DNA of 64,000 nucleotides from Alphaproteobacteria bacterium (GTDB lineage Bacteria; Pseudomonadota; Alphaproteobacteria; Rs-D84), in NCBI GenBank assembly GCA_009784235.1, contig WRCC01000001.1, forward strand, positions 177,506-241,505, given 5' to 3'. How positions within the stretch are numbered: position 1 is the first letter of the stretch; every line of letters begins with the position of its first letter. Below, one piece after another: positions 30,378 through 60,628 of the stretch. The position numbers and the translations under genes were made by a program. Under the pieces are notes generated by a model. It was given only the letters and a program-made list of their open reading frames with translations. It was not told where the DNA came from and did not search any database.

Positions 30378-30398
30378 GGGGCGCATATTTGCGCCCCC
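30378..30398. repeat. palindromic element, short form (GGGGCGCATATTTGCGCCCCC); intergenic terminator-like
   Basis: Perfect GGGGCGCA/TGCGCCCC inverted repeat; member of the family seen at 33389, 40306, 41565, 49992, 54092, 60606. Confidence 0.8.
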
Positions 30399-30417
30399 TG
30401 CATATTTAATTTTGCAA

Positions 30418-31059
30418 TTACTCAATACAACAATTAACGGCGTTTTTTACCCAATTGCCCAGCTTGGATGTTAAACCGGTATTTGCAGATGTGGCGGCAA
30501 CAGATGCAACAGATTTTGCCGGCGCGGATTGTTTTGATTTGGCCCCGGATTTAACATCGCCGACCCAAATGTCCAAACCATGCGGTAATTTGTCTTCGAT
30601 TTTTTCGGTGCCTTTTAAATCGATAAGATTCATATTTATGCCCCAAAACAGCGAATACAATTCGTACGCTTTGTTGAACATATCGTATGCTTCTTTTTTG
30701 TCCCCGGCGCCCAGTGCTTTCGTTCCAACTTCCATCAATCGCATTGATGCGGCCAGCAAGTGTTTCGATATGCACCATACTTCGCCGCCATCATGACCAT
30801 CGCGGTCAACCACGCGTTTCATTAATTCACCGCGCATATCACGAACAATGTTAATCAGGTCATAGAATCCCGGTTTGCCCGTTTTACCGCCGCTGAAAAA
30901 GAAGTGTTCTTCCAATGAAACCAAATTCATCAGGGCAATCGTCAAATCTTGGTCGGATGACAAATCCAGCGGATTTTTTTTCTTTGCATTGTCCGCTTTT
31001 TCAATCAATTGTTCCAATGTTAATTTTTTTTCGGATTTCTTTTCGATTTTTTTTGCCAT
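30418..31059 (-). CDS. hypothetical soluble protein
   Basis: 213 aa, Lys-rich N-terminus, no signal peptide, no recognised domain; ends ...NAVNCCIE. Confidence 0.4.
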   Translation of the reverse strand: MAKKIEKKSEKKLTLEQLIEKADNAKKKNPLDLSSDQDLTIALMNLVSLEEHFFFSGGKTGKPGFYDLINIVRDMRGELMKRVVDRDGHDGGEVWCISKHLLAASMRLMEVGTKALGAGDKKEAYDMFNKAYELYSLFWGINMNLIDLKGTEKIEDKLPHGLDIWVGDVKSGAKSKQSAPAKSVASVAATSANTGLTSKLGNWVKNAVNCCIE

Positions 31060-31061
31060 GA

Positions 31062-31640
31062 TTAATGCTCCATATTTTCAACTTGTTCGATTTGTATTGT
31101 GTTCGGGCAGTCTGGTTTTGGTTTTGGCTTTATGACTTGCTGGCCGGACAGATTCAATATCGCGGCAAACAACAATGTCGCAATGGCCAACGCGCCCAAT
31201 GGCCAGATGACTTTCTGGAATTTGAACCATGATTTTCCACCGTTTTTGCGCTTTATGGTCATGTGCCATCTGGCACCGATATAGAATGCAACCGTACCAA
31301 CGATAATCCCGAACAACAGATTATCGATGCCCCACAGTGTTTCTGCGCCGAAATGAACATCGGGCAACCACCAGATAGCCGCCAGCATCGCATAATAAAT
31401 CGCAATCATCAACAGATACCAATATCCGTTTTGAACGCCCTTGCGCTTCATATAACCGGCCGTCCAGAATATAACAGACAGCATCAAGCCACCCGCCCAA
31501 ATTCCGGTAATAAAATCGTTAATGCCCAACAGCCGCATGCCTTCGAGTCCCACGCCGACGAACACAGTACATACGGGACAGACGGCATACAGGGCAGCAG
31601 GCATAAAGCACAAGGCAAGTATTGCAAATAGTTTTTTCAT
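31062..31640 (-). CDS. hypothetical polytopic membrane protein with N-proximal CPVC motif
   Basis: About five TM helices; CPVC right after the first hydrophobic segment. Start set at internal ATG 31640 (MKKLFAILAL...). Confidence 0.45.
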   Translation of the reverse strand: MKKLFAILALCFMPAALYAVCPVCTVFVGVGLEGMRLLGINDFITGIWAGGLMLSVIFWTAGYMKRKGVQNGYWYLLMIAIYYAMLAAIWWLPDVHFGAETLWGIDNLLFGIIVGTVAFYIGARWHMTIKRKNGGKSWFKFQKVIWPLGALAIATLLFAAILNLSGQQVIKPKPKPDCPNTIQIEQVENMEH

Positions 31641-31689
31641 AACTTTCCCCTTTCGTTCCGACCGAATATACATATTTTTGAATAATGCG

Positions 31690-32541
31690 TCAATGGGATA
31701 TTTTTCGAACTGCGCGAAGATGGGCGCTGCGGGCGCGTGGGTTGTGTGAAAGCTCGGCATCTGATGGCGTAAATGTCTTTAATAATTTGAATGGTGCAGC
31801 AATTGTGATGGGCAAACGTGGGTCACCAGGCGATGTCGTCCATTCGCGAAAAGTGTTTTTGACCAGTCGGTCTTCCAATGAATGAAATGTCACAATTGCG
31901 CAAATTCCATCTGGCTTTAATAATTCTGGCACTGCGGCCAACGCGGATTCGATTTCGCCCATTTCATCGTTGACCGCGATGCGAAGTGCTTGGAACACCG
32001 GCGCGATGTCTTTTGGATTATGTATTAAATCGCGCAATTCGAACGTGGTCGTGGGCAACGTGTCTTTCATAGCGCGTGCGATTGGCCCAGCTTTTTTAAC
32101 ATCACCGTAATCGGCCAAAATCCGGGCTAATTCTGCGACGGTTGAATTTTCAATCAATTCAGCGGCGGTGTGTGGCGCATTTCCCATTCGCATATCCAGT
32201 GTCGCATCAAAACGAAATGAAAATCCACGTTCCGGCGTATCAATTTGCATAGATGAAATACCCAAATCGAAAACGATTGCATCAATGATTTCTGATTTAT
32301 GATTTATGATTTCTGAAAATGGTTCGTTAATAAATTGGAATTTTCCGGGAAATTCGTTGGCCAATTTTTCTGCGATTGGTGCGACGGTCGCATCGCGGTC
32401 GAATGCAATTACGTTTGCGCCGCATTCCAAAAAAGCACGCGAATATCCGCCGGCGCCAAATGTGCAATCGACGATTGTCTTGCCATTTATATCATCAAGT
32501 GTTTGCAAAACTTCATTCAATAAAACGGGTATATGGTTCAT
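31690..32541 (-). CDS. rsmH: 16S rRNA (cytosine1402-N4)-methyltransferase RsmH (MraW)
   Basis: HIPVLLNEVL start, SAM site DCTFGAGGYS, GISSMQID motif; ATGA overlap with mtaB stop. Confidence 0.85.
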   Translation of the reverse strand: MNHIPVLLNEVLQTLDDINGKTIVDCTFGAGGYSRAFLECGANVIAFDRDATVAPIAEKLANEFPGKFQFINEPFSEIINHKSEIIDAIVFDLGISSMQIDTPERGFSFRFDATLDMRMGNAPHTAAELIENSTVAELARILADYGDVKKAGPIARAMKDTLPTTTFELRDLIHNPKDIAPVFQALRIAVNDEMGEIESALAAVPELLKPDGICAIVTFHSLEDRLVKNTFREWTTSPGDPRLPITIAAPFKLLKTFTPSDAELSHNPRARSAHLRAVRKISH

Positions 32542-33734
32542 ATTGGCGTCCCTGTGAAATACAATTCTTTGGCGGATTTGATACCGGTTAATTTTACATT
32601 CATTATTGTTCGTTCGGGAATCGGACATCCGGAAATTTTTACCGGGATGTCGTCGGGCGTGCGGCCGATATTATTTGATTCAACCAAGATTTGCGCAGTA
32701 CGCCCAATTTGCGAATTCATAAATTCGCGCATATTGGCGGCGGCAATTTCGGTTGCGATTTTAACGCGGCGCTTTGATTCTGTGCGATGCACCTGGCCCG
32801 GCATTGATGCGGCGGGTGTGCCCGGACGCGGACTGAATGGAAATGCATGCAATCGTATTGGTTTTAATTCGCGTATTAAATCACATGTTTCATTGAAATG
32901 TTCTTCTGTTTCGCCGGGAAATCCGCAGATAAGGTCCCATGAAAAAGTCACACCATTCGCGTAATTGCTTAATTCACGCACCATTTGTGTGGTATGACGA
33001 CGACCCATTTTTGCAAGTATTTCATTGCAGCCCGATTGCATTGATAAATGCATGTGCGATAACATTCGCGGGTTTTCATGCATCAAATCAACAATGCTGC
33101 GCAGCGGTACGCCCGGGTCCAATGATGATAATCGCAAGCGTTGTAAATTCGCATCATTGAACAACAGATTTTTACATAAAATTGCAATGTTTTGATAACT
33201 GGCGATGTCCACACCGGTTAAAACAATTTCACCGTATCCGTTTGCGGTTAATGCGCGTGTGGCCGCCAGAATTTGTTCATACGGAAACGATACATTTTTC
33301 CCGCGCAGAATTCGCGTAATGCAATAAGAGCACGCGTGATTGCATCCGTTTTGTATTTGGACCAGGCCCTTGGAAAGGGATGAATGTTGTAGGGGCGCAT
33401 ATTTGCGCCCCAGGGCGCGAGTACGCGCCCCTACATATTTCGTTGCATCCAGTTTATCTTTGTTATGGATGGTGGCCGCCACGCCAGGGATTTTTTCAAA
33501 ATCGCTCGGTGAATGTGTGGCGGCGCAGCCGGTTACATAAATTGGCATATCTGGGTTTTCACGGGCCAATCGTCGAACGGCTTGGCGCGATTGCTTTTCG
33601 GCTTCGGATGTCACGGCGCATGTGTTAACCACAATGCCGCGCTGGATTCCGCTGTCTGCCAACAAGCCCGCGATTTTATCCCCTTCCAGGATATTCAGGC
33701 GGCATCCAAATGGTACGGAGCGTATATTTTTCAT
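32538..33734 (-). CDS. mtaB: MiaB-family radical-SAM methylthiotransferase (MtaB-like), carrying an in-frame palindromic-element insertion
   Basis: MTTase N-domain (VNTCAVTSEAE). Radical SAM CxxxCxxC (GCNHACSYC). TRAM-like C-terminus. The linker contains 16 residues (VGARTRALGRKYAPLQ) encoded by the palindromic repeat. Confidence 0.8.
   Translation of the reverse strand: MKNIRSVPFGCRLNILEGDKIAGLLADSGIQRGIVVNTCAVTSEAEKQSRQAVRRLARENPDMPIYVTGCAATHSPSDFEKIPGVAATIHNKDKLDATKYVGARTRALGRKYAPLQHSSLSKGLVQIQNGCNHACSYCITRILRGKNVSFPYEQILAATRALTANGYGEIVLTGVDIASYQNIAILCKNLLFNDANLQRLRLSSLDPGVPLRSIVDLMHENPRMLSHMHLSMQSGCNEILAKMGRRHTTQMVRELSNYANGVTFSWDLICGFPGETEEHFNETCDLIRELKPIRLHAFPFSPRPGTPAASMPGQVHRTESKRRVKIATEIAAANMREFMNSQIGRTAQILVESNNIGRTPDDIPVKISGCPIPERTIMNVKLTGIKSAKELYFTGTPI
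33389..33436. repeat. palindromic element, composite long form, inserted in-frame within mtaB
   Basis: GTAGGGGCGCATATTTGCGCCCCAGGGCGCGAGTACGCGCCCCTACAT is 48 nt (a multiple of 3); the ORF reads through it. Confidence 0.8.
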
Positions 33735-36552: not shown

Positions 36553-36646
36553 GATAATCCTTTCTTGTATATCTACATAGGATATCATACCCAAGACATT
36601 TTTCCAAGCCATGAATAAAATAACAGGGGCGGATGCCCCTGTTATA

Positions 36647-39512: not shown

Positions 39513-40280
39513 ATGTCAAAATTTAAACAAATATTTCCATATAATTGGAAATCTGCGGCACTTGTATTACTGGCGCCAATGGCCATGAATTTCATGTGCC
39601 AAAAAAATCCAAACGAAAATCGTGATTTTCCCAGTTCTTGGAAACCACAACCAAAAGAACCGGTTGTTCAAACACACCTGGACACATTGCACCGCACCGC
39701 GCGCAGCAGAATAAATAGCGTGCACGGGGGAGAGCCTTATCTTAAAGACATATGGGACAGTGGCTTTTCTGTTGCCCAGAGAGAGCTTAATCTCCAAGGC
39801 AGTCTTTCTATGCGTGACACCTGTTTAGTCGCCAACACCGTGCTATATAAGCATGAGGGGGATGTGGGGATATTCCATATACGGTATTTTACAGAAAGAA
39901 ATGTCAACAATGCTATCGTGGCGAACAAAAACTATATGGATTATTGGCAGTTAAGAGAATATGCGAAAACAGCCGCAGGAATTACAATTGATAACACAAT
40001 CGACCGATGGTCGTGGGTTACGGGACTTCGTTTTGACAAGATTCATGAATGGCTGGCCATTAACAAATTGAACGGTATCGCGTTTACAAATTGGGTGAAT
40101 ACAGAGTTTCAAAAGAAAAGACAAGAATTTATAGATGCCCAGCTTTCCGCGCCAAAAGATGACCGCGATGTTCCTATGATTGGTACATACAGAATGTCCG
40201 ATTGTACCGGACTGAAAAGATATGACGCCCCATTTCCGCTTTGGTACGAAGTAAAATCTAAAGAACGCACATCGGCGTAG
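39513..40280 (+). CDS. hypothetical secreted protein (AT-rich region)
   Basis: 255 aa, N-terminal signal-like segment, no recognised domain; local GC is low. Confidence 0.4.
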   Translation: MSKFKQIFPYNWKSAALVLLAPMAMNFMCQKNPNENRDFPSSWKPQPKEPVVQTHLDTLHRTARSRINSVHGGEPYLKDIWDSGFSVAQRELNLQGSLSMRDTCLVANTVLYKHEGDVGIFHIRYFTERNVNNAIVANKNYMDYWQLREYAKTAAGITIDNTIDRWSWVTGLRFDKIHEWLAINKLNGIAFTNWVNTEFQKKRQEFIDAQLSAPKDDRDVPMIGTYRMSDCTGLKRYDAPFPLWYEVKSKERTSA

Positions 40281-40305: not shown

Positions 40306-40328
40306 GGGGCGCAAATATGCGCCCCTAC
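40306..40328. repeat. palindromic element, short form (GGGGCGCAAATATGCGCCCCTAC); bidirectional terminator between convergent genes
   Basis: Inverted repeat GGGGCGCA/TGCGCCCC; family member. Confidence 0.8.
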
Positions 40329-40347: not shown

Positions 40348-41352
40348 TTAACAACAGGCGTAACCACACGGTGGATTTTCATGGGTACAATCCATACACG
40401 TCGGCCAATCGCACGTCTCTAGTCCTTGATTCCAAACCGTGCCGTACGGGCATCGCATGCAGAATGGAAGTACTTCTGTGCCCCACCATCCGCTGTTGTA
40501 CGAACATATAATATATTCGTCACAATCAAACGGGTTTGCCATAAAGATACCCATAATATCGCCAATTCCGCCAGGATGCGGAGGGCACATGTCAACAGTA
40601 ATGGATTCTGGGTTGTGGCAAGGATTTGAAGGGAGTTCATAAATACATTGGTCACCTTCCATATAAAAATTCATAGCACATCGGGTCAGAGTACAATTAC
40701 CGCAAGGTTTTCCATCACCCGGACAGACTTGCTGGCGATGCGCACCTACTTCTATGGCGCTGCCGCATGGGAACAATCCGCGCTGGCATACGCATTTACC
40801 AAATGCTGAACTCCATTGCATACCAATGGGACACTTTTTACATGTCGCAACACCATTAACGCATTCATAATAAAAGAATCTGGATTGACATGCGCCCCAG
40901 CTGCCATCAGGTAACAATGCGGACGAGCAATTCAAAGTAGCGGGGTGCGAAAAGAATATATTTGATGCACCCGGCGGACAAGTTGGCGCGGTCGCGGCCG
41001 GGCAAGCGCCCGGCGAGGATAAGTCTATTTGCCAATCGCGGGCACAACTGGATGCTGGCGGTGTTGTGTCTGGGATGCATACGCCGTCGGATATGATGCC
41101 GCCGGGACAGCTTACAGAACATCCGCCCTGGAAATGATATGTGCCCAGATCATCTGTAAATGTTTGTGATTGTGGAACATTGCAAACCGAACCAAATTGC
41201 CAGATTAAATCCAAAGGATTCGGCGCAGTTGCAGTATTTCCAGTACTGGTATCAAAAGCAGGACAAGTTAAATTTAATGGACCAACAGCAAATGCAGACG
41301 TGACAAAGCACAGAGTACCCATCACAAACATGGATAGTATTGTTTTTTTCAT
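40348..41352 (-). CDS. secreted Cys-rich protein with C-terminal peritrophin-A (CBM14) chitin-binding domain
   Basis: Signal peptide MKKTILSMFVMGTLCFVTSAFA. C-terminal CPPHPGG...NPFDCDEYIICSYNSGWWGTEVLPFCMRCPYGTVWNQGLETCDWPTC fits the 6-Cys CBM14 consensus (C..G...P.DC..Y..C..G....C..G..FN....CDWP). Confidence 0.65.
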   Translation of the reverse strand: MKKTILSMFVMGTLCFVTSAFAVGPLNLTCPAFDTSTGNTATAPNPLDLIWQFGSVCNVPQSQTFTDDLGTYHFQGGCSVSCPGGIISDGVCIPDTTPPASSCARDWQIDLSSPGACPAATAPTCPPGASNIFFSHPATLNCSSALLPDGSWGACQSRFFYYECVNGVATCKKCPIGMQWSSAFGKCVCQRGLFPCGSAIEVGAHRQQVCPGDGKPCGNCTLTRCAMNFYMEGDQCIYELPSNPCHNPESITVDMCPPHPGGIGDIMGIFMANPFDCDEYIICSYNSGWWGTEVLPFCMRCPYGTVWNQGLETCDWPTCMDCTHENPPCGYACC

Positions 41353-41564: not shown

Positions 41565-41613
41565 GTAGGGGCGCATTGAATGCGCCCAGGTGGGCGTGCG
41601 CAGCACGCCCCTA
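41565..41613. repeat. palindromic element, composite long form, between tRNA-Ser and rplY
   Basis: GTAGGGGCGCATTGAATGCGCCCAGGTGGGCGTGCGCAGCACGCCCCTAT: two nested inverted repeats, same architecture as the mtaB and alaS copies. Confidence 0.75.
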
Positions 41614-41617
41614 TATA

Positions 41618-43988: not shown

Positions 43989-45008
43989 ATGGCACCGAAA
44001 AAAACAAAATCTTATAATTTCCCGGACCCAATTGCGAATGCGGAATTGGTTGGTCATTCGGATGCGCAAAATGCATTTATGGATGCGTGGCGGCGACGCG
44101 CGGAATATCCAATTCACCCAGTCTGGATTTTGTCTGGCGTACGCGGCATTGGCAAAGCGACTTTGGCATACAGGATTGCGCGGTTTGTATTCGGCGAACA
44201 AATGGCGACGGGCGGATATGATGATTCGACTGGCGATTTGTTTGCTGGTGATGCGCCGGTCGCAAACGCGGATAATTCCGATGCTGTTTTTCAAAAAATG
44301 CTGGATGGTGGGTTTGGCGATTTCTTTATAATAGATACCGCGCACAATCTTGATGCGAATGGGCGACCGAATCCAGATGTAAAAAGCATCAGCGTACATA
44401 CGCTGCGCAAAATGATTGAAAAAATGCAATTGTCATCTATGGAGGGCGGATGGCGCGTTGTAATAATTGATTCGCTGGATGAATTGTCGGTTGCGGCGCA
44501 GAATGCAATACTGAAATTGTTAGAAGAACCGCCGGCGAACACCCTATTCTTGGTTGTCGTACATTCTTTGGCAAATACTTTGCCGACAATTCGTTCGCGT
44601 GCACGTGTTGAAAAATTGCACCCGCTGACCATTTCTGAATTGCGTGATGTTGCGCGGATTTTATTGCCCGACGATGAACAAGATTTATCGCCTGCGACTT
44701 TGCGATTGGCGGCGGGTTCATTTGGCCGTATTGCGAATTTAAAGAAAAATGGCGGCGATGAATTGTACGAAGATTTATTGCGCATATGTAAAAACGACCG
44801 TGCGAACGCATCGGATATTATGACGATGGCGTCGGCAATTGCAAAGGCGCCAGAAATGAACGGCATATTATTGGACGCTGTGGCGCATTTCGGATTGGCT
44901 GACTTATATCCGACCGCGACCCAACAAATTGCAGATATAACACGTGTGCATTTGGAACCAGAAATCGCCGCATTCAGAATTATTAGCGATATACGAAAAT
45001 GTTTATAG
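43989..45008 (+). CDS. holB: DNA polymerase III delta-prime subunit
   Basis: AAA+ clamp-loader fold with degenerate Walker A (SGVRGIGKAT), SRC-like region, LLEEPP motif. Confidence 0.75.
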   Translation: MAPKKTKSYNFPDPIANAELVGHSDAQNAFMDAWRRRAEYPIHPVWILSGVRGIGKATLAYRIARFVFGEQMATGGYDDSTGDLFAGDAPVANADNSDAVFQKMLDGGFGDFFIIDTAHNLDANGRPNPDVKSISVHTLRKMIEKMQLSSMEGGWRVVIIDSLDELSVAAQNAILKLLEEPPANTLFLVVVHSLANTLPTIRSRARVEKLHPLTISELRDVARILLPDDEQDLSPATLRLAAGSFGRIANLKKNGGDELYEDLLRICKNDRANASDIMTMASAIAKAPEMNGILLDAVAHFGLADLYPTATQQIADITRVHLEPEIAAFRIISDIRKCL

Positions 45009-45880
45009 ATACCCATTGTCATTTAACCCACCGATATGTTCCAGCAGACGAAGTTTCCGGCGTGATTCATCGTGCGCGTGACGCGGGTGTTGGCGCTTTG
45101 GTTATGTCTGGTGCGGCGGTGGGCGATGCCGCAGATGCGGTCGCGCTGTGTGAAAAATATGATAATCTGTTTTGTACGGTTGGAATTCATCCGGAATATG
45201 CTATCTCCCCCTCCTTGAGGGGGAGTGGCGAGCAAGGCGAGCCGAGGGGGAGCTCCCCCAGTCGCCTGCGGCGACAGCCCCCCTCAAAGGGGGGGGGCAC
45301 AGGCACCGTGCTTGATTACACCAAATTTTTATCACATCCAAAGGTTGTTGGTGTTGGTGAAATCGGTTTGGATTTTTATTATGATAAAGAAATCGAAATA
45401 CACAACAAACAAATCGAATTCTTTCGCGCGCAGTTGAAAATTGCCGCGGATGCTGGGTTGCCAGTGGCGATTCACAGTCGTGCGGCGCGCGCGGAAACGG
45501 TTGAAATTTTATGCGATGCGGCGTATGCGAATTTGGGCGGCGGCCTTGTTCCCGGCGTGATGCATTTTCACTGTATGCCATGGGAATTTACAAAAAAATT
45601 ATTGGACCGCGGATTTTATTTTTCCGCGACTGGGATAATTACATTCAAAAATGCAGATGCCGAACGCGATGTATTTGCGCGCATACCAATCGACCGGATT
45701 GTTATCGAAACGGATGCACCGTGGTGCGCGCCGGTACCATTTCGCGGAAAAACATGCGAACCGGCGATGGTTGTTGAAACCGCACGTGCATTGGCCGAAA
45801 TCCATAGCATATCGTTACCAGAATTGGAAAATATTTTATTCGAAAATACGAAACGTTTGTACCCGAAGATGATTATTTAG
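44999..45880 (+). CDS. tatD: TatD-family metal-dependent DNase, carrying an in-frame GC-rich palindromic insertion (~34 aa)
   Basis: IDTHCHL start, GEIGLDFYYD and HSR motifs. Between GIHPEYA and VLDYTKF the protein reads ISPSLRGSGEQGEPRGSSPSRLRRQPPSKGGGTGT, encoded by nested C5/G5-type hairpins. Confidence 0.8.
   Translation: MFIDTHCHLTHRYVPADEVSGVIHRARDAGVGALVMSGAAVGDAADAVALCEKYDNLFCTVGIHPEYAISPSLRGSGEQGEPRGSSPSRLRRQPPSKGGGTGTVLDYTKFLSHPKVVGVGEIGLDFYYDKEIEIHNKQIEFFRAQLKIAADAGLPVAIHSRAARAETVEILCDAAYANLGGGLVPGVMHFHCMPWEFTKKLLDRGFYFSATGIITFKNADAERDVFARIPIDRIVIETDAPWCAPVPFRGKTCEPAMVVETARALAEIHSISLPELENILFENTKRLYPKMII
45203..45304. repeat. GC-rich palindromic insertion inside tatD (CCCCCTCCTTGAGGGGGAG ... 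GGGGGAGCTCCCCC ... CCCCCCTCAAAGGGGGGGG)
   Basis: Three hairpins of oligo-C/oligo-G arms within ~100 nt; GC content far above the gene average; in frame. Confidence 0.7.
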
Positions 45881-46723: not shown

Positions 46724-46755
46724 AAAAAATGCCGCGGATGCGGCATTTTTTATTT
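46724..46755. terminator. bidirectional rho-independent terminator; identical 32-nt copy also at 52124-52155
   Basis: AAAAAATGCCGCGGATGCGGCATTTTTTATTT between convergent smpB and the EF-hand gene. Confidence 0.75.
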
Positions 46756-48246: not shown

Positions 48247-49995
48247 ATGACATACAGCCAAATTAGAAAAGCGTTTCTTGACTATATGGAACAGCATGGA
48301 CATAAAATTGTACCATCGGCATCGCTGATTCCAGATGACCCAACATTATTATTTACTGTTGCCGGAATGGTTCCGTTCAAGGGCGTGTTTTTGGGCACTG
48401 AACCGGCGCCCGCGCCGCGCGTTGCAGATTCGCAGAAATGTATTCGCGCAGGCGGCAAGCATAATGATTTAGAAGATGTCGGATTCAACGGCCGGCATCA
48501 TACTTTCTTTGAAATGCTGGGTAATTGGTCTTTTGGCGATTATTTCAAGCAAGGCGCAATTGAAATGTCATGGGATTTGTTGACCAATGTTTTGAAAATT
48601 GACCCAGCGCGATTGGTTGTAACAACGCACACCAGCGACGATGAAGCAACCGAAATTTGGAAAAAATTAACCGGTAAAGATGCTATACGCCTGGGCGATA
48701 AATCAAACTGGTGGTCGGCGGGCGATGTTGGGCCATGTGGACCATCCACAGAAATATTTTATGATTACGGACCGAATGTCGCGGGCGGATTGCCCGGCAC
48801 ACCGGACGAAGATGGCGACCGATACGTCGAAATCTGGAACAATGTTTTTATGGAATTTAATCGCGATGCGGATGGCGTGTTAAGCCCATTGCCCCATAAA
48901 AATGTCGATACCGGTGCGGGATTGGAACGCTGGGCCGCAATGCTGCAAGGCGTGACCAGCAATTACGATACAGATTTATTCGTCGCATTGCGTCGCGCAG
49001 TTGGCGAAGTCACGAGTGTCACAGAAACCCCAGAAAATACCGTATCTTTTAAAATAATTTCCGACCATTTGCGCAGCGTTGGATTTGCAATCGCAGATGG
49101 CGTTGTCCCGTCGAATACGGAACGCGGATATGTCGTGCGCCGTATTTTGCGCCGCGCAATGCGTCATGGCCAGGTTTTGGGTCATCGCGGGGCGTTGTTG
49201 TCGCGTTTGTACCCTGCCCTGGTTTCACAAATGGGTGATGCGTATCCTGAATTGGCGCGTGAACAATCGCGCGTTATCGCGACGATTGAAAAAGAAGAAC
49301 GCGCGTTTGAAGACATGCTGCACAACGGCTTGAAGTTATTGGAAAAAGAAGTTCCAAATGTGACAGGCGGCACAATGGCCGGCGATGTTGCGTTCAAGCT
49401 TTATGATACATACGGATTTCCGTTGGATTTAACGCAAACGATTTTGCGCGAACGTGGAATTGATGTTGATATCGCTGGGTTTGATGCGGCAATGGCCGAA
49501 CAAAAAGAACGGTCGCGTTCATCGCAAACATTCAAAGGCGGATTGGCCGACCACGATACCGAAACAACGAAGTTGCATACGGCGACACACTTGCTGCACG
49601 CCGCTTTGCGCAAAGTTTTGGGCAATGGCGTCGAACAAAAAGGCAGCAATATAACGCCGGAACGCTTGCGATTTGATTTTTCATTCGACCGACGTGTTGA
49701 ACCAAATGAATTGGCCGAAGTTGAACGCATTGTTAATGACGCCATCGCCGCCGCAGTGCCAATTGTTTGCAATGAAATGTCTGTTGCAGATGCCAAGGCA
49801 GCGGGCGCAATTGGATTATTCGAAGACAAATATGGTGACGCGGTTATGGTATATTCTGCGGGCGATTGGTCGCGCGAAATATGCGGTGGACCACACGTTG
49901 CAAATACATCCGAAATCGGCACATTCAAAATCAAAAAAGAAGAATCCAGCGCCGCCGGAATCCGCCGAATCAAAGCAGTCGTGGGTAATTCGTAG
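48247..49995 (+). CDS. alaS: alanine--tRNA ligase, short form (catalytic, tRNA-recognition and editing domains; no C-Ala domain)
   Basis: Class II motifs (FTVAGMVPFK, GNWSFGDYFK), editing-site HxxxH (HTATHLLH) and CGGPHV, ending ...IRRIKAVVGNS*. 582 aa against ~870 typical. The TAG stop lies within a palindromic element. Confidence 0.8.
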   Translation: MTYSQIRKAFLDYMEQHGHKIVPSASLIPDDPTLLFTVAGMVPFKGVFLGTEPAPAPRVADSQKCIRAGGKHNDLEDVGFNGRHHTFFEMLGNWSFGDYFKQGAIEMSWDLLTNVLKIDPARLVVTTHTSDDEATEIWKKLTGKDAIRLGDKSNWWSAGDVGPCGPSTEIFYDYGPNVAGGLPGTPDEDGDRYVEIWNNVFMEFNRDADGVLSPLPHKNVDTGAGLERWAAMLQGVTSNYDTDLFVALRRAVGEVTSVTETPENTVSFKIISDHLRSVGFAIADGVVPSNTERGYVVRRILRRAMRHGQVLGHRGALLSRLYPALVSQMGDAYPELAREQSRVIATIEKEERAFEDMLHNGLKLLEKEVPNVTGGTMAGDVAFKLYDTYGFPLDLTQTILRERGIDVDIAGFDAAMAEQKERSRSSQTFKGGLADHDTETTKLHTATHLLHAALRKVLGNGVEQKGSNITPERLRFDFSFDRRVEPNELAEVERIVNDAIAAAVPIVCNEMSVADAKAAGAIGLFEDKYGDAVMVYSAGDWSREICGGPHVANTSEIGTFKIKKEESSAAGIRRIKAVVGNS

Positions 49996-50028
49996 GGGCC
50001 CTTGGGCGCGGTTTCCGCGCCCCTACAT
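49992..50028. repeat. palindromic element, composite form, containing the alaS stop codon
   Basis: GTAGGGGCCCTTGGGCGCGGTTTCCGCGCCCCTACAT; TAG at 49993-49995. Confidence 0.75.
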
Positions 50029-50214: not shown

Positions 50215-52125
50215 ATGGTAAAAGTAAGAAAAAAAGACGCCGATTTAAATAAAATCGGCAACCTGCCGTTCTTGTCAAATGGCATCGAAGATGATTTTGC
50301 GGACGATATTGACGGCAAAGATGCTGCGATTGCAGCCGTGTCTGCGATTGCAAAAAAGACGAAATCAAAGAAAAGAGAAAAAGGCTCCCCGACAGCCCCT
50401 ATCAAAGAGGGTGGCACAAGCAAGGATGCCGATGACATTATGCATTTCTTTGCTATGGGCGGATTGGAACATATCGGCCAAAATATGTACGTATATAAGT
50501 ACAAAGGCAAATATCTGATTGTCGATTGCGGAATGGGATTTTTGGAACAAGACGTCGGTGGCGATGATACAAAATATTGTGATACTACTTATTTGGAAAA
50601 ACGCAAAAAAGACGTTGTCGGAATGGTCATAACCCATGGGCACGAAGACCATATCGGCGCGCTGAAATACGTTTGGCCGAAATTTAAATGTCCGATTTAC
50701 TGTACGCGTTTTGTTGCGAAAATTTTGCGTCGTACATTCGATGGAATGGAAATAGAATACAAGCCGTCTGATATCGTTGAATTCAATCATAATGGTGATG
50801 ATTTTAATGTCGCGCCGTTTGGAATTGAAACTTTTCACGTTACACACTCGATTCCCGAAGCACAAATGATTGTCATAAAAACCCCGGCTGGAAAAATATT
50901 ACACACCGGCGACTGGACATTCAATGATGCGATTCCAATCGAAGCGGATACGGATTTCCAGCGCTTGCGCGAAATTGGGTCCGACCCAAATTTGTTGGCT
51001 TGTGTTTGTGATTCGACGTCTGCTAACCGCTTGACAGTTCAAACGACCGAAGTCGAAGTGCGCGAAAGCCTGGCCGAAATTATGAAAAAAGCACCGGGCC
51101 GCGTATTGGTTTCCGGATATGGCCGTTCCATCGCGCGCATGAAAATGTTCAGTGACGCCGCACGTGCCGCCGGCCGTGTTCCCGCGATTAAAGAACGCAG
51201 CAACACGCGCCCAGTCCCATACGTCGGATTGCCAGAATTTCGTGAAATCGGAATCGAATGTGGATATTTGGCACCGGATGATTTGGCGTTCCACCGCGAT
51301 ATCAAAGATTTGCCAGCAGAAAAACAAGCAATTTATTTGACGGGTCACCAAGGTGAAAAATACGCAATGTTAACACGTTTATGTCGTGGACATGTCAAAG
51401 AAATGAAGCTGATGCCGACCGACACAGTCGTATTCAGCGCGATTATTATTCCGGGTCGCGAAGCGAATGTTTCGTTCTTGTATAATAAATTGGCGAAAAT
51501 GGGCGTTGCGATTAAGACTGTTTATGACACGCCGAACGTGCACGCGTCCGGCCATGCTGGTCGTCCGGAATACGAACGATTCTATGACATCGTGCATCCG
51601 CAGACAATTATTCCGATGCACGGCGAATACATCACCGAAATGCTGAATGCGAAAATGGCGATGGAAATCGGCGGTGCGAAGCACATGATGATTGTGCATA
51701 ACGGCGATGTTGTTGAATTGAAAAAAGACGTTGAACCAGAAATCGTCGAAAAATTCAAAGTTGGTTTTATTGTAATGGAAGGCGAAACAGAACGCATGGG
51801 TAACGACGACCCGGTCTTGAAAAACCGCAAAAAATTATCGACCGAGGGGGCTGTGTTCGTCACCCTGCCCGTTGATAAACGCGGGTATTTAAAAGATACA
51901 CCGGATGTTTCCAGTGCGGGCGTTTTTGAACATGATGAAAAGGGCCTGATTAAACGCCAAATTCAAATCGAAATTACCAAAGCGATGAAAGATTTAGGCA
52001 AGGCAGAACGCAAGAGTCAGGAAAATCTGCGCAATGCGGTTATAACGGCGGTCAAGGGTGTTATCCGTCCGATATTCGGCGACCGAAAATCACCCGCCGT
52101 CCAAGTGCACTTTGTGTATAAGTAA
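50215..52125 (+). CDS. rnj: ribonuclease J (metallo-beta-lactamase/beta-CASP) with ~75-aa N-terminal extension
   Basis: HGHEDHIG zinc motif, beta-CASP region and C-terminal domain; N-terminal 75 aa Lys/Asp-rich. Confidence 0.85.
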   Translation: MVKVRKKDADLNKIGNLPFLSNGIEDDFADDIDGKDAAIAAVSAIAKKTKSKKREKGSPTAPIKEGGTSKDADDIMHFFAMGGLEHIGQNMYVYKYKGKYLIVDCGMGFLEQDVGGDDTKYCDTTYLEKRKKDVVGMVITHGHEDHIGALKYVWPKFKCPIYCTRFVAKILRRTFDGMEIEYKPSDIVEFNHNGDDFNVAPFGIETFHVTHSIPEAQMIVIKTPAGKILHTGDWTFNDAIPIEADTDFQRLREIGSDPNLLACVCDSTSANRLTVQTTEVEVRESLAEIMKKAPGRVLVSGYGRSIARMKMFSDAARAAGRVPAIKERSNTRPVPYVGLPEFREIGIECGYLAPDDLAFHRDIKDLPAEKQAIYLTGHQGEKYAMLTRLCRGHVKEMKLMPTDTVVFSAIIIPGREANVSFLYNKLAKMGVAIKTVYDTPNVHASGHAGRPEYERFYDIVHPQTIIPMHGEYITEMLNAKMAMEIGGAKHMMIVHNGDVVELKKDVEPEIVEKFKVGFIVMEGETERMGNDDPVLKNRKKLSTEGAVFVTLPVDKRGYLKDTPDVSSAGVFEHDEKGLIKRQIQIEITKAMKDLGKAERKSQENLRNAVITAVKGVIRPIFGDRKSPAVQVHFVYK

Positions 52126-52155
52126 AAAATGCCGCGGATGCGGCATTTTTTATTT
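52124..52155. terminator. bidirectional terminator, second identical copy of AAAAAATGCCGCGGATGCGGCATTTTTTATTT
   Basis: Between convergent rnj and ackA; 32/32 identical to 46724-46755. Confidence 0.75.
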
Positions 52156-53454: not shown

Positions 53455-54063
53455 CTAATACCAGATTCTGAACCGGATTTTCCAATTCGTGTTTGTGATA
53501 TTTGTTGTAATACCGCTGGTTTTATGCGAAACCCAAAAATTTTCGCCAGCGACGGCCAAGCGGGCGCGAACGCCATTTGCATCCGTGAACAAGAATGGAC
53601 GCGGGTTTGTACGATTGCCTATACCAAATGCATATACAATTTCGCCGATTTGATATCCGGCATCTGGTGTTTGGCATATTAATACCGCGTCGGCCATGGC
53701 GCGTGCGACATCAAGCCCGGGCAATTGTCCAAATATCATTTCTTGGAACGAAGTTGTCGATATGGTTGCAGATTCCATGTTCACGAAGTTCGGCAAGGCC
53801 GGTGCAGCGAATGCATATCCGGCCAGGTGGCCTGCGATACGTGCATCCAATTCTTCGTCTGATATGCCGCCACATACGCCGTCGCCACCGGCAATAATTT
53901 CCGCCAAATCAGCGGCGCGGGCCAACGGAATACCACCCAATGTCGCGCCATCATGCACGCGTACGGTCTTTGCGTCTGTATCCACAGTGATTTCACCCAT
54001 TGCACCGGTAAAGTTTGCATGTTCGGCCGCCGTCCCGCGGCGAATTTGTATTTGTCTTGTCAT
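53455..54063 (-). CDS. phage tail-fibre-like protein with Mtd (major tropism determinant) N-terminal-type domain
   Basis: N-terminus MTRQIQIRRGTAAEHANFTGAMGEITVDTDAKTVRVHDGATLGGIPLARAADL closely parallels the Bordetella phage BPP-1 Mtd N-terminus (FRGGTTAQHATFTGAAREITVDTDKNTVVVHDGATAGGFPLAR). 202 aa; no lectin-fold C-terminus. Confidence 0.55.
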   Translation of the reverse strand: MTRQIQIRRGTAAEHANFTGAMGEITVDTDAKTVRVHDGATLGGIPLARAADLAEIIAGGDGVCGGISDEELDARIAGHLAGYAFAAPALPNFVNMESATISTTSFQEMIFGQLPGLDVARAMADAVLICQTPDAGYQIGEIVYAFGIGNRTNPRPFLFTDANGVRARLAVAGENFWVSHKTSGITTNITNTNWKIRFRIWY

Positions 54064-54091
54064 ACTGATTCTCCTTTTTTGGTTAAAAAAT

Positions 54092-54114
54092 GGGGCGCAA
54101 ATATGCGCCCCTAC
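54092..54114. repeat. palindromic element, short form (GGGGCGCAAATATGCGCCCCTAC)
   Basis: Identical core to the copy at 40306. Confidence 0.8.
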
Positions 54115-54336
54115 TATGATAAAAAAACCGCCAAAAAGGCGGATGCGTACGTCGCAATTATGCCAGAAAATCGATAAAAAATCAAGCAGAATTATGTCAG
54201 AATATTAATTAATAGACAAAAATATATTTATTATAGAATATAATTAACACAAATAAATATTAAATAAAACAGTAACTCACTGAAAATAGCCATTTTTTAT
54301 AGATTGACAAAAAAATTCTGTATAAGCAATATTACC

Positions 54337-58285: not shown

Positions 58286-58340
58286 CTATACTCGCACGTG
58301 CCAGATTTTGGCATATTATTTTTATAATTGCAAGATATTT

Positions 58341-59831
58341 TTATTTGATTTTTTTGTTGGCGATATAGGCCAGTGGCATATAGAACACACCACCAGCAGC
58401 AATAGCAACAATCAACGTGAATATTCCGGTTATCATGCCGGCAGACATTGCAACATATAATCCCACACCCATGATGGCCGACAACGCGCCGAATACGGTA
58501 ATCGCACGGGCTGTTGACGGCGCGGACTGGAACAAGTTCCGGTGGCGGCATGCACGCAACAACAGCCAGTTTTTCAAATATCCGCCGACAACCACGCCAA
58601 TTGGAACAGACAAAAATCCAACAACGGGAAACATCGCAACGAAAATCGCGGCAGAGACGCCCAGCGATATCATGCTGGTCCGAACCGGCGTTTTAACATC
58701 TTGTGATGCATATAGTGTTTTTGAATAAACTTGGCTGGTCGTCATGGCGGGCAGCGCCAGACACAATATCATTATTGCCGTTGCCGTTGCGATTGTTGAT
58801 TCATGCGTCCATGCGCCGCGTTCAAATATAAACTGCATAATTGGTGTGGCCAAAACGAACAGTCCAACCATTGACGGCAACACGAACATCATCGATTGGC
58901 GCATCACAGCGTTTTGTTGCGCATATACTGTTTCCATTTTTTTCGCGCTTATCGCGTCCGAAATACTGGTCAATAATACCGTTCCGGCCGCCAAGCCCAC
59001 GACTGCAAACGGCAATTGCACCATGCGGTCAGCATAGTACAGCCATGTTACCGCGCCGGACTGAAACGATGCGACCAATGTTCCGATTAATATATTTATT
59101 TGATAAAAACCACTGCCCACTATCGTTGTGCCCATGCGTTTGACCATGGTCTTTATACCATTTGTTATGCGTGGTCGAATAAGACGCAGACCGAACCGGC
59201 GTGCGCGAATTCGCGCCCATAAAATCGCAAACTGCACAATGCCGGAAATCATTACTGCCGCTGCCAATATATAGATTGCGGTCGCGCCAACATCAAAATA
59301 AATCGCCGCGCCCAGGCCAAGAATCATGAATATATTCGTCAAAGCGGGCATCATTGCGGCGATTGCAAATTCAGAAAAAGCATTCAGAATTGCACCCAGG
59401 AATGCTGCGCCGCAAATTAAAATCACATATCCGAACATCAGGCGGGCCAGCAATATTGTCGATTCCATCTTGCCCGGGTCGATTGCAAATCCGGGTGCAA
59501 TTGCCCAGATAATCAGTGGCATTGCAATTAGTGCGACGACCGTAATTAATAATAAAATCGCCATCAGCCATGAAAAAACATTGCTGGCAAACAGTGGTCC
59601 GCGTGGCGCGCGATTTTTATGTTCAGCGAACATCGGCACAAATACGGCAGACAATGCGCCTTCACCCAACAAGTCGCGAAATAAATTCGGCAATTTGAAC
59701 GCGGCCAGGAATATATCGGACAACCGCCCCGCCCCCAATACGGCCGCAAACAGCATATCGCGCGCAAAGCCCAGCACCCGGCTGGCCGCCGTCCATGCAC
59801 CAACTTTGAATATATGTTTTTGCAGTGACAT
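58341..59831 (-). CDS. murJ: lipid II flippase MurJ (MviN)
   Basis: N-terminal AASRVLGFARDMLFAAVLGAG...FLAAFKLPNLFRDLLGEGALSAVFVP signature; 14 TM helices. Confidence 0.85.
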   Translation of the reverse strand: MSLQKHIFKVGAWTAASRVLGFARDMLFAAVLGAGRLSDIFLAAFKLPNLFRDLLGEGALSAVFVPMFAEHKNRAPRGPLFASNVFSWLMAILLLITVVALIAMPLIIWAIAPGFAIDPGKMESTILLARLMFGYVILICGAAFLGAILNAFSEFAIAAMMPALTNIFMILGLGAAIYFDVGATAIYILAAAVMISGIVQFAILWARIRARRFGLRLIRPRITNGIKTMVKRMGTTIVGSGFYQINILIGTLVASFQSGAVTWLYYADRMVQLPFAVVGLAAGTVLLTSISDAISAKKMETVYAQQNAVMRQSMMFVLPSMVGLFVLATPIMQFIFERGAWTHESTIATATAIMILCLALPAMTTSQVYSKTLYASQDVKTPVRTSMISLGVSAAIFVAMFPVVGFLSVPIGVVVGGYLKNWLLLRACRHRNLFQSAPSTARAITVFGALSAIMGVGLYVAMSAGMITGIFTLIVAIAAGGVFYMPLAYIANKKIK

Positions 59832-59887
59832 TTTCTACTTTCTTTTTTCGATTGTCGGCATTATACTCGTCGTAAAAGGAAAATAAA

Positions 59888-60601
59888 GTGAAAAGATTTA
59901 TTGTGCTTATGTTGGCGATTGTACTGGTCGGATGCAGCGGTGATAAAATTACACCGGAACGACCGCTGGATGAAATTTATGCCAAGGCGTATGAACAGCT
60001 GGACCGGAAAAATTGGTCACGCGCAGCCGAAGAATTCCAAGCCGCGGAACGCAACCATCCCGCGTCCGTGTGGGCGCCGGATGCGCTGATTATGGCGGCG
60101 TATGCGCTGTATATGGATGATGATTTTGCGGGCGTGATTACAGTCACCGACCGATTTATGCGCTTTTTCCCAGGGCATCACGATGTCGCATACGTGCTGT
60201 ACCTGCGCGGAATGGCATATTATCGCCAAGTATCAGACGTGCGGCGCGAACCGGGCATGTCTGTGCATGCGCTGAATACTTTCACGCAATTGGTAACGCG
60301 ATTCCCGAATTCGGAATATGCGGCAAATGCGCGAAATAAAATTCTTATCCTGAAAAATTACCTGGCCGGCAAGGTTATGTATTCCGCGCGTCGTGATATG
60401 GCGCGTCAAAATTGGGCGGCGGCGATTGAACAATTACAACAAATTGTAACGGGCGCCCAGGAAACCAAAATGACACCAGAAGCCCTATTCCGCTTGACGG
60501 AAAGCTATACAGCAATCGGACTGCCTGAACAAGCACGCGGATATGCCGAAATGTTGCGTATGAATTTCCCGGACAACGAATGGACGAAGAAGTTAAAATA
60601 A
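59888..60601 (+). CDS. bamD: outer-membrane protein assembly factor BamD (TPR lipoprotein)
   Basis: Lipobox LVGCSG; TPR-like helical repeats; 237 aa. Confidence 0.75.
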   Translation: MKRFIVLMLAIVLVGCSGDKITPERPLDEIYAKAYEQLDRKNWSRAAEEFQAAERNHPASVWAPDALIMAAYALYMDDDFAGVITVTDRFMRFFPGHHDVAYVLYLRGMAYYRQVSDVRREPGMSVHALNTFTQLVTRFPNSEYAANARNKILILKNYLAGKVMYSARRDMARQNWAAAIEQLQQIVTGAQETKMTPEALFRLTESYTAIGLPEQARGYAEMLRMNFPDNEWTKKLK

Positions 60602-60605
60602 TACA

Positions 60606-60628
60606 GAGGCGCAAATATGCGCCCTTAC
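60606..60628. repeat. palindromic element, degenerate short form (GAGGCGCAAATATGCGCCCTTAC); bidirectional terminator
   Basis: Two substitutions relative to the consensus core; directly after the bamD stop. Confidence 0.65.

What the first reader, a model, noticed from the sequence alone, without database searches (positions are those of the whole stretch)
30378..60628. A dispersed family of GC-rich palindromic elements (GGGGCGCAAATATGCGCCCC and composite TAGGGGCGC…GCGCCCCTA forms), at least 7 copies in 64 kb
Copies lie at 30378-30398, 33389-33436, 40306-40328, 41565-41613, 49992-50028, 54092-54114 and 60606-60628. Short forms sit between convergent or tandem genes as apparent bidirectional terminators. 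Longer composite forms have two nested inverted repeats flanked by TA(C/G)GGG…CCCTA. About 1 copy per 9 kb indicates a REP/RPE-like repetitive element specific to this lineage. Separately, an unrelated 32-nt terminator (AAAAAATGCCGCGGATGCGGCATTTTTTATTT) is duplicated identically at 46724 and 52124.
Basis: seen in the sequence. Interest (0 to 1): 0.6.

Follow-up and report, generated by a model that had tools for sequence, protein, structure and literature searches.

The report
GTAG-tagged REP hairpin repeat family
The repeated GC-rich hairpins are real and belong to a well-known class of small bacterial repeats (GTAG-tagged REP elements, single and in back-to-back pairs), here in an uncultured alphaproteobacterium, with one pair sitting in frame inside a tRNA-modification gene; a new example of a known kind, not a new kind.

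Summary
All seven loci exist at the stated coordinates, with 5 loci found against 0.01 expected by chance. A covariance model built only from copies in other genomes recovers exactly these loci and nothing else in the window.

The unit is 23 nt: an unpaired GTAG tag, a 7-8 bp GC stem and an A/T loop (GTAGGGGCGCATATTTGCGCCCC). The 'composite' forms are head-to-head dimers with the tags facing outwards. This is the published definition of GTAG-tagged REPs (Di Nocera 2013).

- The 'TA' ends are part of a one-sided GTAG tag, not a target-site duplication.
- The family is not lineage-specific. The same tagged 20-mer occurs in several apparently termite-gut alphaproteobacterial MAGs and in Rheinheimera and Arsukibacterium.
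- The dimer at 33389-33434 is not intergenic. It lies in frame inside an intact mtaB gene.
- The tags at 49992 and 60628 supply stop codons.

Relatives show a filled versus empty site in tsaB and a flipped copy at one shared intergenic site.

Mobilisation by a RAYT/TnpA-REP transposase is inferred. No such gene was found in about 77 kb of this genome or in the 66 related loci screened. The duplicated 32-nt terminator is real and separate.

Verdict: new member of a known kind, modest interest.

The parts
30378..30401 (-). REP singleton with a degenerate tag (GCAG+G). It lies 20 nt downstream of the stop of ORF 30418..31059(-) and upstream of the next (-) gene (uni-REP).
   Evidence: 24.4 bits with the tag on the - strand; 27.6 bits without the tag on the + strand. 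A gene caller placed the next gene's ATG in the REP loop, but a signal peptide starts 21 codons further on.
33389..33411 (+). REP unit type A (GTAG GGGCGC ATATTT GCGCCC C). Left half of a head-to-head dimer inside mtaB.
   Evidence: 41.4 bits, E=1e-9.
33412..33434 (-). REP unit type B (GTAG GGGCGCG TACT CGCGCCC). Right half of the head-to-head dimer. The pair folds as one 48-nt hairpin.
   Evidence: 37.3 bits. (-40.2 kcal/mol, z=-8).
32538..33734 (-). Intact mtaB gene (398 aa) hosting the dimer. The REP encodes VGARTRALGRKYAPLQ, residues about 101-116, in the linker between the UPF0004 and radical-SAM domains.
   Evidence: The same protein is called in two independent assemblies.
40306..40328 (-). 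REP singleton between convergent genes 39513..40280(+) and 40348..41352(-).
   Evidence: 41.4 bits. Terminator-like on both strands.
41565..41588 (+). REP variant (loop TTGAA). Left half of a head-to-head dimer between rplY/L25 (41618..42337, -) and tRNA-Ser (41469-41556, -).
   Evidence: 28.1 bits.
41591..41614 (-). Diverged REP unit (tag ATAG, stem GGGCGTGC). Right half of that dimer, after a 4-nt spacer.
   Evidence: 13.7 bits, E=0.12: marginal.
49992..50001 (+). Remnant tag and stem start (GTAGGGGCCC) of a truncated left unit. TAG at 49993-49995 is the stop codon of alaS (48247..49995).
   Evidence: The alaS product is a full-length short-form AlaRS (NF002436, positions 1-593 of 595), so it is not truncated by the REP.
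50003..50026 (-). REP unit, type B-like (GTAG GGGCGCGG AAA CCGCGCCC).
   Evidence: 24.2 bits, E=1e-4.
54092..54114 (-). REP singleton in the leader of the Mtd_N-domain gene 53455..54063(-), just after a canonical terminator hairpin at 54128-54142.
   Evidence: 41.4 bits. The same site in relative L060 holds the unit flipped.
60606..60628 (-). Degenerate REP singleton (tag GTAA, one stem mismatch) between convergent bamD (59888..60601, +) and ORF 60625..(-). The tag's TAA is that ORF's stop codon.
   Evidence: (26.8 bits).
6272..6319 (+). Probable decayed head-to-head dimer remnant in frame in tsaB (GTTGTATG...CGCCCATACAA, encoding VVCCSVIPAKAGPPIQ). This is an inference.
   Evidence: Intact dimers sit at the same codon position in L026 and L071. 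The site is empty in L070 and in about 180-aa homologues.
46724..46755 (.). Separate feature: canonical bidirectional terminator (A6, 12-bp stem, T6) between smpB (+) and a (-) ORF. Copy 1 of an exact 32-nt duplicate.
52124..52155 (.). Copy 2 of the 32-nt terminator, between rnj (+) and ackA (-). The flanks are unrelated to those of copy 1.
   Evidence: Absent from the 68 loci held when checked.

Best explanation
These are GTAG-tagged REP elements (repetitive extragenic palindromes).

Anatomy:
- The unit is 23 nt: an unpaired GTAG tag followed by a short, perfect, GC-rich hairpin.
- Units occur as singletons and as head-to-head heterodimers with the tags outwards. This is the REPIN/BIME-like form, and it can fold into one long hairpin.

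Most likely mechanism (inferred by analogy, not shown here):
- The units are non-autonomous elements.
- A single-copy HUH/Y1 'RAYT' (TnpA-REP) enzyme encoded elsewhere in the genome recognises them as folded single-stranded DNA. It uses the hairpin plus the GTAG tag, and it cuts and rejoins them.
- Copies persist where a stable hairpin is harmless or useful. That means just after stop codons, where it could protect mRNA 3' ends or weakly terminate transcription.
- Occasionally copies persist inside genes. The unit has no stop codon in 5 of its 6 reading frames, and the dimer encodes about 16 residues that fit into variable loops or linkers (mtaB here; tsaB and trmB in relatives).
For: Shown directly:
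- Unit anatomy and copy list.
- The tag is one-sided and linked to loop orientation: GTAG on the ATATTT side in 36/69 unique copies against 7/69 on the other side.
- Compensatory stem variants C:G to T:A and A:T to G:C.
- Stable folds of -17 kcal/mol for the unit and -40.2 kcal/mol for the dimer.
- Head-to-head dimers with spacers of 1-8 nt in the window and in relatives.
- Clustered arrays in other genomes.
- Six of the 7 loci are intergenic or sit at a stop codon, and two tags supply stop codons.

Evidence of turnover:
- The tsaB site is empty in L070. It is filled by an A+B dimer in L026 and by a different dimer with an 8-nt spacer in L071. It is decayed in the window.
- The 23-nt unit is flipped between the window and L060 at the same intergenic site.
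- A REP sits at a synteny break in L054.
- A 48-nt dimer 98% identical to the window's mtaB copy lies in a different gene of a genome only about 73% identical.

Literature match:
- Definition of GTAG REPs, head-to-head dimers, TAG stop donation and intragenic REPs: PMC3733652.
- GTAG plus hairpin as the substrate of TnpA-REP, and short perfect palindromes typical of 'group 3': PMC8266576.
Against: - No RAYT/Y1 transposase was found in the window or in the first 66 loci.
- None appears in the Pfam-annotated flanks of the same genome.
- RAYTs are usually single-copy, so this absence is weak evidence, but the link remains untested.
- The whole-genome copy number is unknown, because the genome is not in the searchable collection.
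- In mtaB the REP-coded 16 residues replace the linker rather than lengthen it (19 aa against 16-25 in relatives). A simple insertion does not predict that.
- REP sequences are far better conserved than their flanks at orthologous sites. This could reflect selection or gene conversion rather than recent transposition.
- The stem-pairing statistics are inflated. My regex required six palindromic outer pairs.
Confidence: 0.7

Rival explanations
1. The elements spread and are kept uniform without a dedicated transposase. Possible routes are gene conversion or recombination between copies, or an unknown enzyme. This is what is proposed for CGTC-tagged REPs and the Rickettsia palindromic elements.
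For: - No RAYT in any accessible sequence.
- Length-neutral replacement of the mtaB linker.
- Different dimers occupy the very same tsaB codon site in three genomes.
- Near-perfect REP sequence within flanks that are 25-40% diverged.
- CGTC REPs are reported to lack a transposase.
Against: - The conserved one-sided GTAG tag is the recognition and guide motif of TnpA-REP in every studied case.
- Gene conversion alone does not explain new sites in unrelated genes, or the flip at a shared site.
Confidence: 0.15
2. They are simply intrinsic, bidirectional transcription terminators or other RNA hairpins. Selection keeps them at 3' ends, and they are not mobile DNA.
For: - Copies at 40306 (both strands) and at 30378, 41569, 54092 and 60607 (- strand) pass a loose hairpin-plus-T-rich-tail scan.
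- Five loci lie within 25 nt of a stop codon.
- The REP in front of the Mtd_N gene is kept in a relative.
Against: - Independent terminators would not share an identical 20-23 nt sequence, including the loop and an unpaired tag, across loci and across bacterial classes.
- One dimer is inside an intact essential-type gene.
- The genome's clear terminators have a different A-run/stem/T-run design.
- The 49992 and 33389 copies lack T tails.
Confidence: 0.1
3. They are miniature inverted-repeat transposable elements that duplicate a TA target and are moved by a DDE transposase of the IS630/Tc1 type.
For: Dimers read TA-GGGGCGC...GCGCCCC-TA.
Against: - TA flanks both sides in only 3 of 65 unique copies.
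- The TA is embedded in a conserved G-T-A-G.
- A 23-nt unit is too short for a MITE with terminal inverted repeats.
- The filled versus empty tsaB comparison shows no duplication.
- No DDE transposase lies nearby.
Confidence: 0.03

Closest known systems
GTAG-tagged REPs (Di Nocera, De Gregorio & Rocco 2013, PMC3733652), especially the short perfect-palindrome type handled by 'group 3' TnpA-REP (S. maltophilia SMAG, Marinomonas REP-Mb, Pseudomonas; PMC8266576)
   Same: - An unpaired GTAG at one end.
- A 6-9 bp GC stem and a short loop.
- Singletons plus head-to-head heterodimers 1-5 bp apart.
- Location after uni- and convergent ORFs.
- The tag donates a TAG stop.
- Occasional in-frame intragenic copies.
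- The same family shared by distant taxa.
   Different: - This stem and loop combination (GGGCGC / ATATTT) could not be matched to a published family. The string GGGCGC does not occur in the paper's main text, and the figure listing the families is not held.
- The host is an uncultured, apparently termite-gut alphaproteobacterium, whereas GTAG REPs are mostly gammaproteobacterial.
- The cognate RAYT was not seen.
REPIN-RAYT systems (Bertels & Rainey 2011, PMC3116915) and E. coli REP/BIME
   Same: Two REPs in inverted orientation that fold into one long hairpin (-40 kcal/mol). Copies are long-lived and kept at orthologous sites.
   Different: - The spacer is only 1-8 nt.
- The partners are two different REP types.
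- E. coli REPs are longer with a bulged stem.
- RAYT association is untested here.
Rickettsia palindromic elements (RPE; Ogata et al. 2000/2002, from memory; RPE-4/6 are classed as CGTC REPs in PMC3733652)
   Same: - The host is an alphaproteobacterium.
- Palindromic repeats inserted in frame in housekeeping genes, including tRNA-related enzymes.
- The genes remain intact.
   Different: - RPE-1 is 100-150 bp, and RPE-4/6 carry a CGTC tag rather than GTAG.
- There is no sequence relation.
- Here most copies are extragenic.
Rho-independent terminators
   Same: A GC-rich hairpin, often followed by a T-rich stretch, at gene ends.
   Different: The sequence is shared between loci, a tag is present, copies occur in coding sequence, and there is no flanking A-run/T-run symmetry.

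Membership tests
GTAG-tagged REP | Small (20-40 bp) GC-rich palindromic stem-loop | tested here: met
   The unit is 23 nt with 7-8 bp of stem and a 4-6 nt loop. It folds at -17 kcal/mol, z=-4.5.
GTAG-tagged REP | Unpaired GTAG (or a close variant) at one end only | tested here: met
   GTAG is present in 36/69 copies on the ATATTT side against 7/69 on the other side, and on both sides in only 2. In the window there are 6 exact GTAG tags plus the variants GCAG, ATAG and GTAA.
GTAG-tagged REP | High copy number, dispersed through the genome | tested here: inconclusive
   There are 8 loci and 11 units in about 77 kb of this genome. The whole genome could not be scanned. Related species' representative genomes hold at most 5 exact 20-mers, and variants were not counted.
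GTAG-tagged REP | Association into HH/TT dimers or clusters | tested here: met
   Three head-to-head dimers in the window. Five head-to-head dimers next to the exact 20-mer in the set analysed, one of them the window's own, plus arrays of 3-7 units in other genomes.
GTAG-tagged REP | Mostly intergenic, close to the 3' ends of uni- or convergent ORFs | tested here: met
   Two convergent, three unidirectional or at a stop codon, one in a leader, one intragenic.
GTAG-tagged REP | A cognate RAYT/TnpA-REP gene flanked by the REPs (REPtron) | not testable with these tools
   None was found in the window, the 66 loci screened or the two annotated flanks. REPtrons can also be absent.
REPIN | Two inverted REPs forming one long hairpin, replicated as a unit | tested here: inconclusive
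   The fold as one hairpin is met. A 48-nt dimer recurs at 92-98% identity in mtaB, tsaB and trmB of different genomes. Replication as a unit is not demonstrable here.
Rickettsia palindromic element (RPE) | Long (about 100-150 bp) palindromic element or a CGTC-tagged unit; Rickettsia lineage | tested here: not met
   The unit is 23 nt, the dimer 46-48 nt, and the tag is GTAG. Only the in-frame insertion behaviour is shared.
MITE with TA target duplication | Terminal inverted repeats flanked by a duplicated TA on both sides | tested here: not met
   TA lies on both sides in 3 of 65 copies. No duplication is seen at the filled versus empty tsaB site.
Intrinsic terminator | GC hairpin immediately followed by a U-tract at the end of a transcription unit | tested here: inconclusive
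   Five singleton or half units pass a loose pattern scan. The dimers at 33389 and 49992 do not. No transcript data are available.

The most novel reading that the evidence does not exclude
This apparently termite-gut alphaproteobacterial clade may be a second 'Rickettsia-like' case. At least two unrelated palindromic families (this GTAG REP and a CCCCCC/GGGGGG-type element) may colonise coding sequence on a large scale and get exapted. Observations behind this reading:
- REP units form part of the signal peptides (FGAQ[IL]CAPT) of orthologous secreted proteins in different species.
- Dimers recur at one codon site of tsaB.
- REP dimers sit in three tRNA-modification enzymes (MtaB, TsaB, TrmB).
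- This may happen without any RAYT.
Probability: 0.25. Interest if true: 0.5.

Novelty: new member of a known kind. Interest (0 to 1): 0.3.

Why it matters
In itself this adds one more REP family to a well-described class.

Its practical value is for annotation:
- The repeats explain odd peptide stretches (VGAH.CAP, GRKYAPLQ, GAQICAPT) in predicted proteins of these MAGs.
- They explain a mis-called start codon inside a REP loop.
- They explain stop codons donated by the tag.

The clade offers natural filled, empty and decayed series of REP insertions inside conserved genes. Such a series could be used to study how hairpin repeats enter and erode within coding sequence, and whether GTAG REPs can persist without a RAYT.

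Tried and rejected
1. I searched for a RAYT by HUH/Y-motif regexes and by tblastn with an E. coli YafM sequence recalled from memory. Nothing was found in the window or the first 66 loci. The Pfam tables of the flanks show no Y1 transposase.
2. I tested the idea that the REP truncated alaS. It is rejected: the protein covers positions 1-593 of 595 of the short-form AlaRS model NF002436.
3. I tested the idea that the REP loop ATG starts the 783-aa gene, as a gene caller had it. This is unlikely, because a classical signal peptide begins 21 codons downstream.
4. I considered 26929-26953 (GGGTGCATATTTGCAC) as an eighth copy. It is rejected: E=1.8, and it has the A-run/T-run build of a normal terminator.
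5. I tested TA as a target duplication. It is rejected.
6. The Rfam scan found no known RNA family at the elements.
7. Three look-ups of window proteins failed, probably because the start codons differ from the gene calls on record.
8. The window's genome is not among the representative genomes, and only about 13 kb of extra flank could be fetched.
9. The 32-nt terminator was looked for in the 68 loci then held and found in none.


Full report
**The observation**

- The 20-mer GGGGCGCAAATATGCGCCCC is exact at 40306 and 54092.
- Its reverse complement is exact at 30378 and 33392.
- A 2-mismatch copy is at 60606.
- That makes five loci against 0.01 expected from shuffles.
- The stem alone (GGGGCGC) is not enriched, with 15 hits against 12 expected. 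The signal is therefore the whole element, not base composition.

I built a covariance model from 23 units taken only from other genomes and ran it unfiltered on the window. The same genome carries one more exact copy 7.4 kb to the left of the window, and none in 5.8 kb to the right. That gives about one locus per 10 kb over 77 kb.

**The organism**

- The window carries a permuted alpha-type tmRNA and bacterial RNase P RNA, with GC of about 46%.
- The mtaB product is identical to an NCBI protein labelled 'MAG: Alphaproteobacteria bacterium', on a 376,703-bp contig.
- It is also found in ENA ERZ27257304 and Logan SRR5215144 assemblies.
- The nearest relatives are contigs whose names suggest termite-gut metagenomes and MAGs. 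That origin is my inference from the names.
- L026 is syntenic with window 5040-8417 at about 73-76% nucleotide identity.

**Anatomy**

I oriented each copy by its asymmetric loop and compared the flanks of 69 unique copies from the window and 66 loci.
- GTAG lies immediately 5' of the ATATTT-oriented hairpin in 36 copies.
- GTAG lies on the opposite side in only 7, and on both sides in 2 (raw flanks).
- The unit is therefore 5'-GTAG-GGGCGCA-TATT-TGCGCCC-C-3': an unpaired tag on one side of a perfect palindrome.
- Variants keep the pairing through double changes, C:G to T:A and A:T to G:C. My selection regex forced the six outer pairs to be palindromic, so only the innermost pair is an unbiased test.
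- The 'composite' forms are two different units placed body to body with their tags outwards.
- At 33389-33434 a type A unit and a type B unit (GTAGGGGCGCGTACTCGCGCCC) are joined by a 1-nt spacer.
- At 41565-41614 two diverged units are joined by a 4-nt spacer.
- At 49992-50026 an intact unit sits next to a remnant tag.
- The first of these dimers folds as a single 48-nt hairpin of -40.2 kcal/mol.

**Comparison with what is known**

This is the published definition of GTAG-tagged REPs. The features below are all described by Di Nocera et al. 2013 (PMC3733652):
- 20-40 bp palindromes with an unpaired GTAG at one end.
- Stems of 6-9 bp.
- Frequent 'HH' dimers with GTAG outside, sometimes only 1-5 bp apart and often heterodimers.
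- Location after unidirectional and convergent ORFs.
- Tags that donate TAG stop codons.
- A minority of copies wholly inside ORFs, including tRNA-related genes.

Short perfect palindromes preceded by GTAG are the substrates of 'group 3' TnpA-REP enzymes. GTAG is required for recognition and for choosing the cleavage site (PMC8266576).

**Context in the window**

| Locus | Context |
|---|---|
| 40306 | Between convergent genes |
| 60606 | Between convergent genes. Its mutated tag GTAA gives the TAA stop of the (-) ORF |
| 30378 | After the stop of ORF 30418..31059(-) |
| 41565 | After the stop of rplY, and in front of tRNA-Ser |
| 49992 | At the stop of alaS. GTAG at 49992-49995 contains the TAG stop of a full-length short-form AlaRS |
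| 54092 | In the leader of an Mtd_N-domain gene, next to a canonical terminator |
| 33389-33434 | In frame inside an intact mtaB |

In mtaB, Pfam UPF0004 covers residues 8-85 and Radical_SAM covers 126-287, and the protein matches the TIGR01579 MtaB model. The dimer encodes VGARTRALGRKYAPLQ in the hypervariable inter-domain linker. The unit has a stop codon in only one of its six reading frames, the one that reads the tag's TAG. I verified this by reading the sequence.

Several singletons pass a loose terminator scan. However, the genome's obvious terminators are built differently, with an A-run, a stem and a T-run. A terminator role for the REPs is therefore possible but not shown.

**Evidence that the family turns over**

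1. tsaB.
   - Most homologues are about 180 aa and lack any insert.
   - L070 is such an empty site at the DNA level.
   - L026 has an A+B dimer there that is 98% identical to the window's mtaB dimer.
   - L071 has a different dimer with an 8-nt spacer at the same codon.
   - The window itself has a decayed remnant (GTTGTATG...CGCCCATACAA).
   - Other relatives keep only the terminal '...PLQ/PIQ'.
   - No target duplication is visible.
2. At the shared intergenic site in front of the Mtd_N gene, the 23-nt unit is exactly flipped between the window and L060. The flanks there are only about 74% identical.
3. In L054 a REP marks the junction between segments that lie 15 kb apart in the window.
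4. Relatives carry the dimer in trmB (L049, with a Methyltransf_4 hit spanning it). They also carry single units inside the signal peptides of orthologous M23-peptidase genes (L050/L032) and outer-membrane-protein genes (L059/L040).
5. One MtaB homologue (P0014) has the REP-coded 'CAPGREYAPLQ' at a different site.

**Not lineage-specific, and no TA duplication**

The same tagged 20-mer appears in REP clusters of Rheinheimera pleomorphica, Arsukibacterium ikkense and gammaproteobacterial MAGs, and in several alphaproteobacterial MAGs. The family is therefore not specific to this lineage.

TA flanks both sides in only 3 of 65 unique copies. That removes the MITE/TA-duplication idea.

**Mechanism**

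What is shown:
- The elements are oriented, tagged hairpin units.
- They occur at new sites and in new orientations between relatives.
- They are tolerated at 3' ends and in protein loops.

What is inferred:
- A RAYT/TnpA-REP moves them on single-stranded DNA.

No such gene lies in the window, in the 66 loci screened or in the annotated flanks. This says little, because RAYTs are single-copy.

Two observations fit a simple cut-and-paste or copy-in model poorly:
- The mtaB linker is not longer than in relatives without the REP.
- REP sequence stays almost perfect at orthologous sites whose flanks have diverged by 25-40%.

Gene conversion among copies, or selection on the hairpin, may contribute.

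**The 32-nt terminator**

- AAAAAATGCCGCGGATGCGGCATTTTTTATTT is exactly duplicated at 46724 and 52124.
- Both copies lie between convergent genes (smpB and a (-) ORF; rnj and ackA).
- The flanks are unrelated.
- It folds at -16.3 kcal/mol.
- It belongs to the genome's ordinary A-run/stem/T-run terminators and is unrelated to the REP family.
- It was not found in the 68 loci then held. Why two sites share it exactly is unexplained.

**Verdict**

This is a new family-level member of the known GTAG-REP class. The intragenic and stop-donating behaviour is already on record for that class.

Noticed in passing
window 45203-45307 (inside tatD-like ORF 44999..45880, +): A second, unrelated palindromic insert lies in frame in a TatD DNase gene and encodes ISPSLRGSGEQGEPRGSSPSRLRRQPPSKGGGTGT. 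It contains hairpins CTCCCCCTCCTTGAGGGGGAG and GCCCCCCTCAAAGGGGGGGGGC. Similar CCCCCC/GGGGGG hairpins occur in L049, L054, L013 and L058. The peptides DSPQGGS/TPPLGGV appear as inserts in MtaB homologues P0008, P0012, P0018 and P0047.
   Followed up: partly
loci L050 5997-6022, L032 8316-8341, L059 6847-6872, L040 1254-1280: Single REP units lie inside the predicted signal peptides (…FGAQ[IL]CAPT…) of orthologous M23-peptidase genes and outer-membrane-protein genes in different species. The hairpin is intact although the flanks have diverged.
   Followed up: partly
MtaB homologues P0006, P0008, P0012, P0014, P0016, P0018, P0047: Close MtaB relatives are 450-560 aa instead of about 400. Large low-complexity inserts sit at four recurrent positions (the linker, after GVDIAGY, before SFSWD and at the C-terminus), which suggests widespread repeat invasion of this gene in the clade.
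   Followed up: no
window 53455-54150 and L060 880-1010: A gene with a phage Mtd_N (major tropism determinant N-terminal) domain is preceded by two consecutive terminator-like hairpins, a canonical one and the REP, about 30 nt before its start codon. The arrangement is kept in a relative, which may point to a leader or attenuator.
   Followed up: partly
window 3748-4082 (+) and 46146-46718 (+): A permuted (two-piece, alpha-type) tmRNA gene and its partner smpB lie 42 kb apart. RNase P RNA is at 18563-18886 (-).
   Followed up: no
window 8822-18540 (+): Two giant ORFs (1259 and 1952 aa) are full of internal direct repeats of about 250, 140 and 50 nt. They have no convincing Pfam family, only a weak Flg_new hit.
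   Followed up: no
window 22130-22624 (inside ORF 21957..23063, -): About eleven 45-nt tandem units of 60-70% identity lie within a 368-aa ORF, making a repeat protein of 15-residue periods.
   Followed up: no
window 40348-41352 (-): A 334-aa protein carries a C-terminal CBM_14 (peritrophin-A chitin-binding) domain. To my knowledge this domain is typical of arthropods, which fits an insect-gut habitat or a horizontal acquisition.
   Followed up: no
window 34231-39286 (-): Two adjacent autotransporters (793 and 879 aa) lie directly downstream of a canonical terminator. One has pertactin/autochaperone domains and the other has Chlamydia-PMP repeats.
   Followed up: no
window 48247-49995 (+): The alanyl-tRNA synthetase is the short, roughly 590-aa form (NF002436), which lacks the C-terminal C-Ala domain of the usual 870-aa bacterial enzyme.
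   Followed up: partly
window 46724-46755 and 52124-52155: An exact 32-nt duplicate of a canonical bidirectional terminator occurs at two unrelated convergent gene pairs. The identity ends at the element's borders, and the reason for the duplication is unknown.
   Followed up: yes
L011, L018, L023, L053, L064, L066: The same 20-mer hairpin, without a GTAG tag, follows a conserved stretch 'AAGACACTAATA...TTTCTCCAATT' in Lachnospiraceae, Senegalimassilia and Bacteroidaceae contigs. This looks like one shared mobile segment in gut bacteria and is unrelated to the REP family.
   Followed up: no
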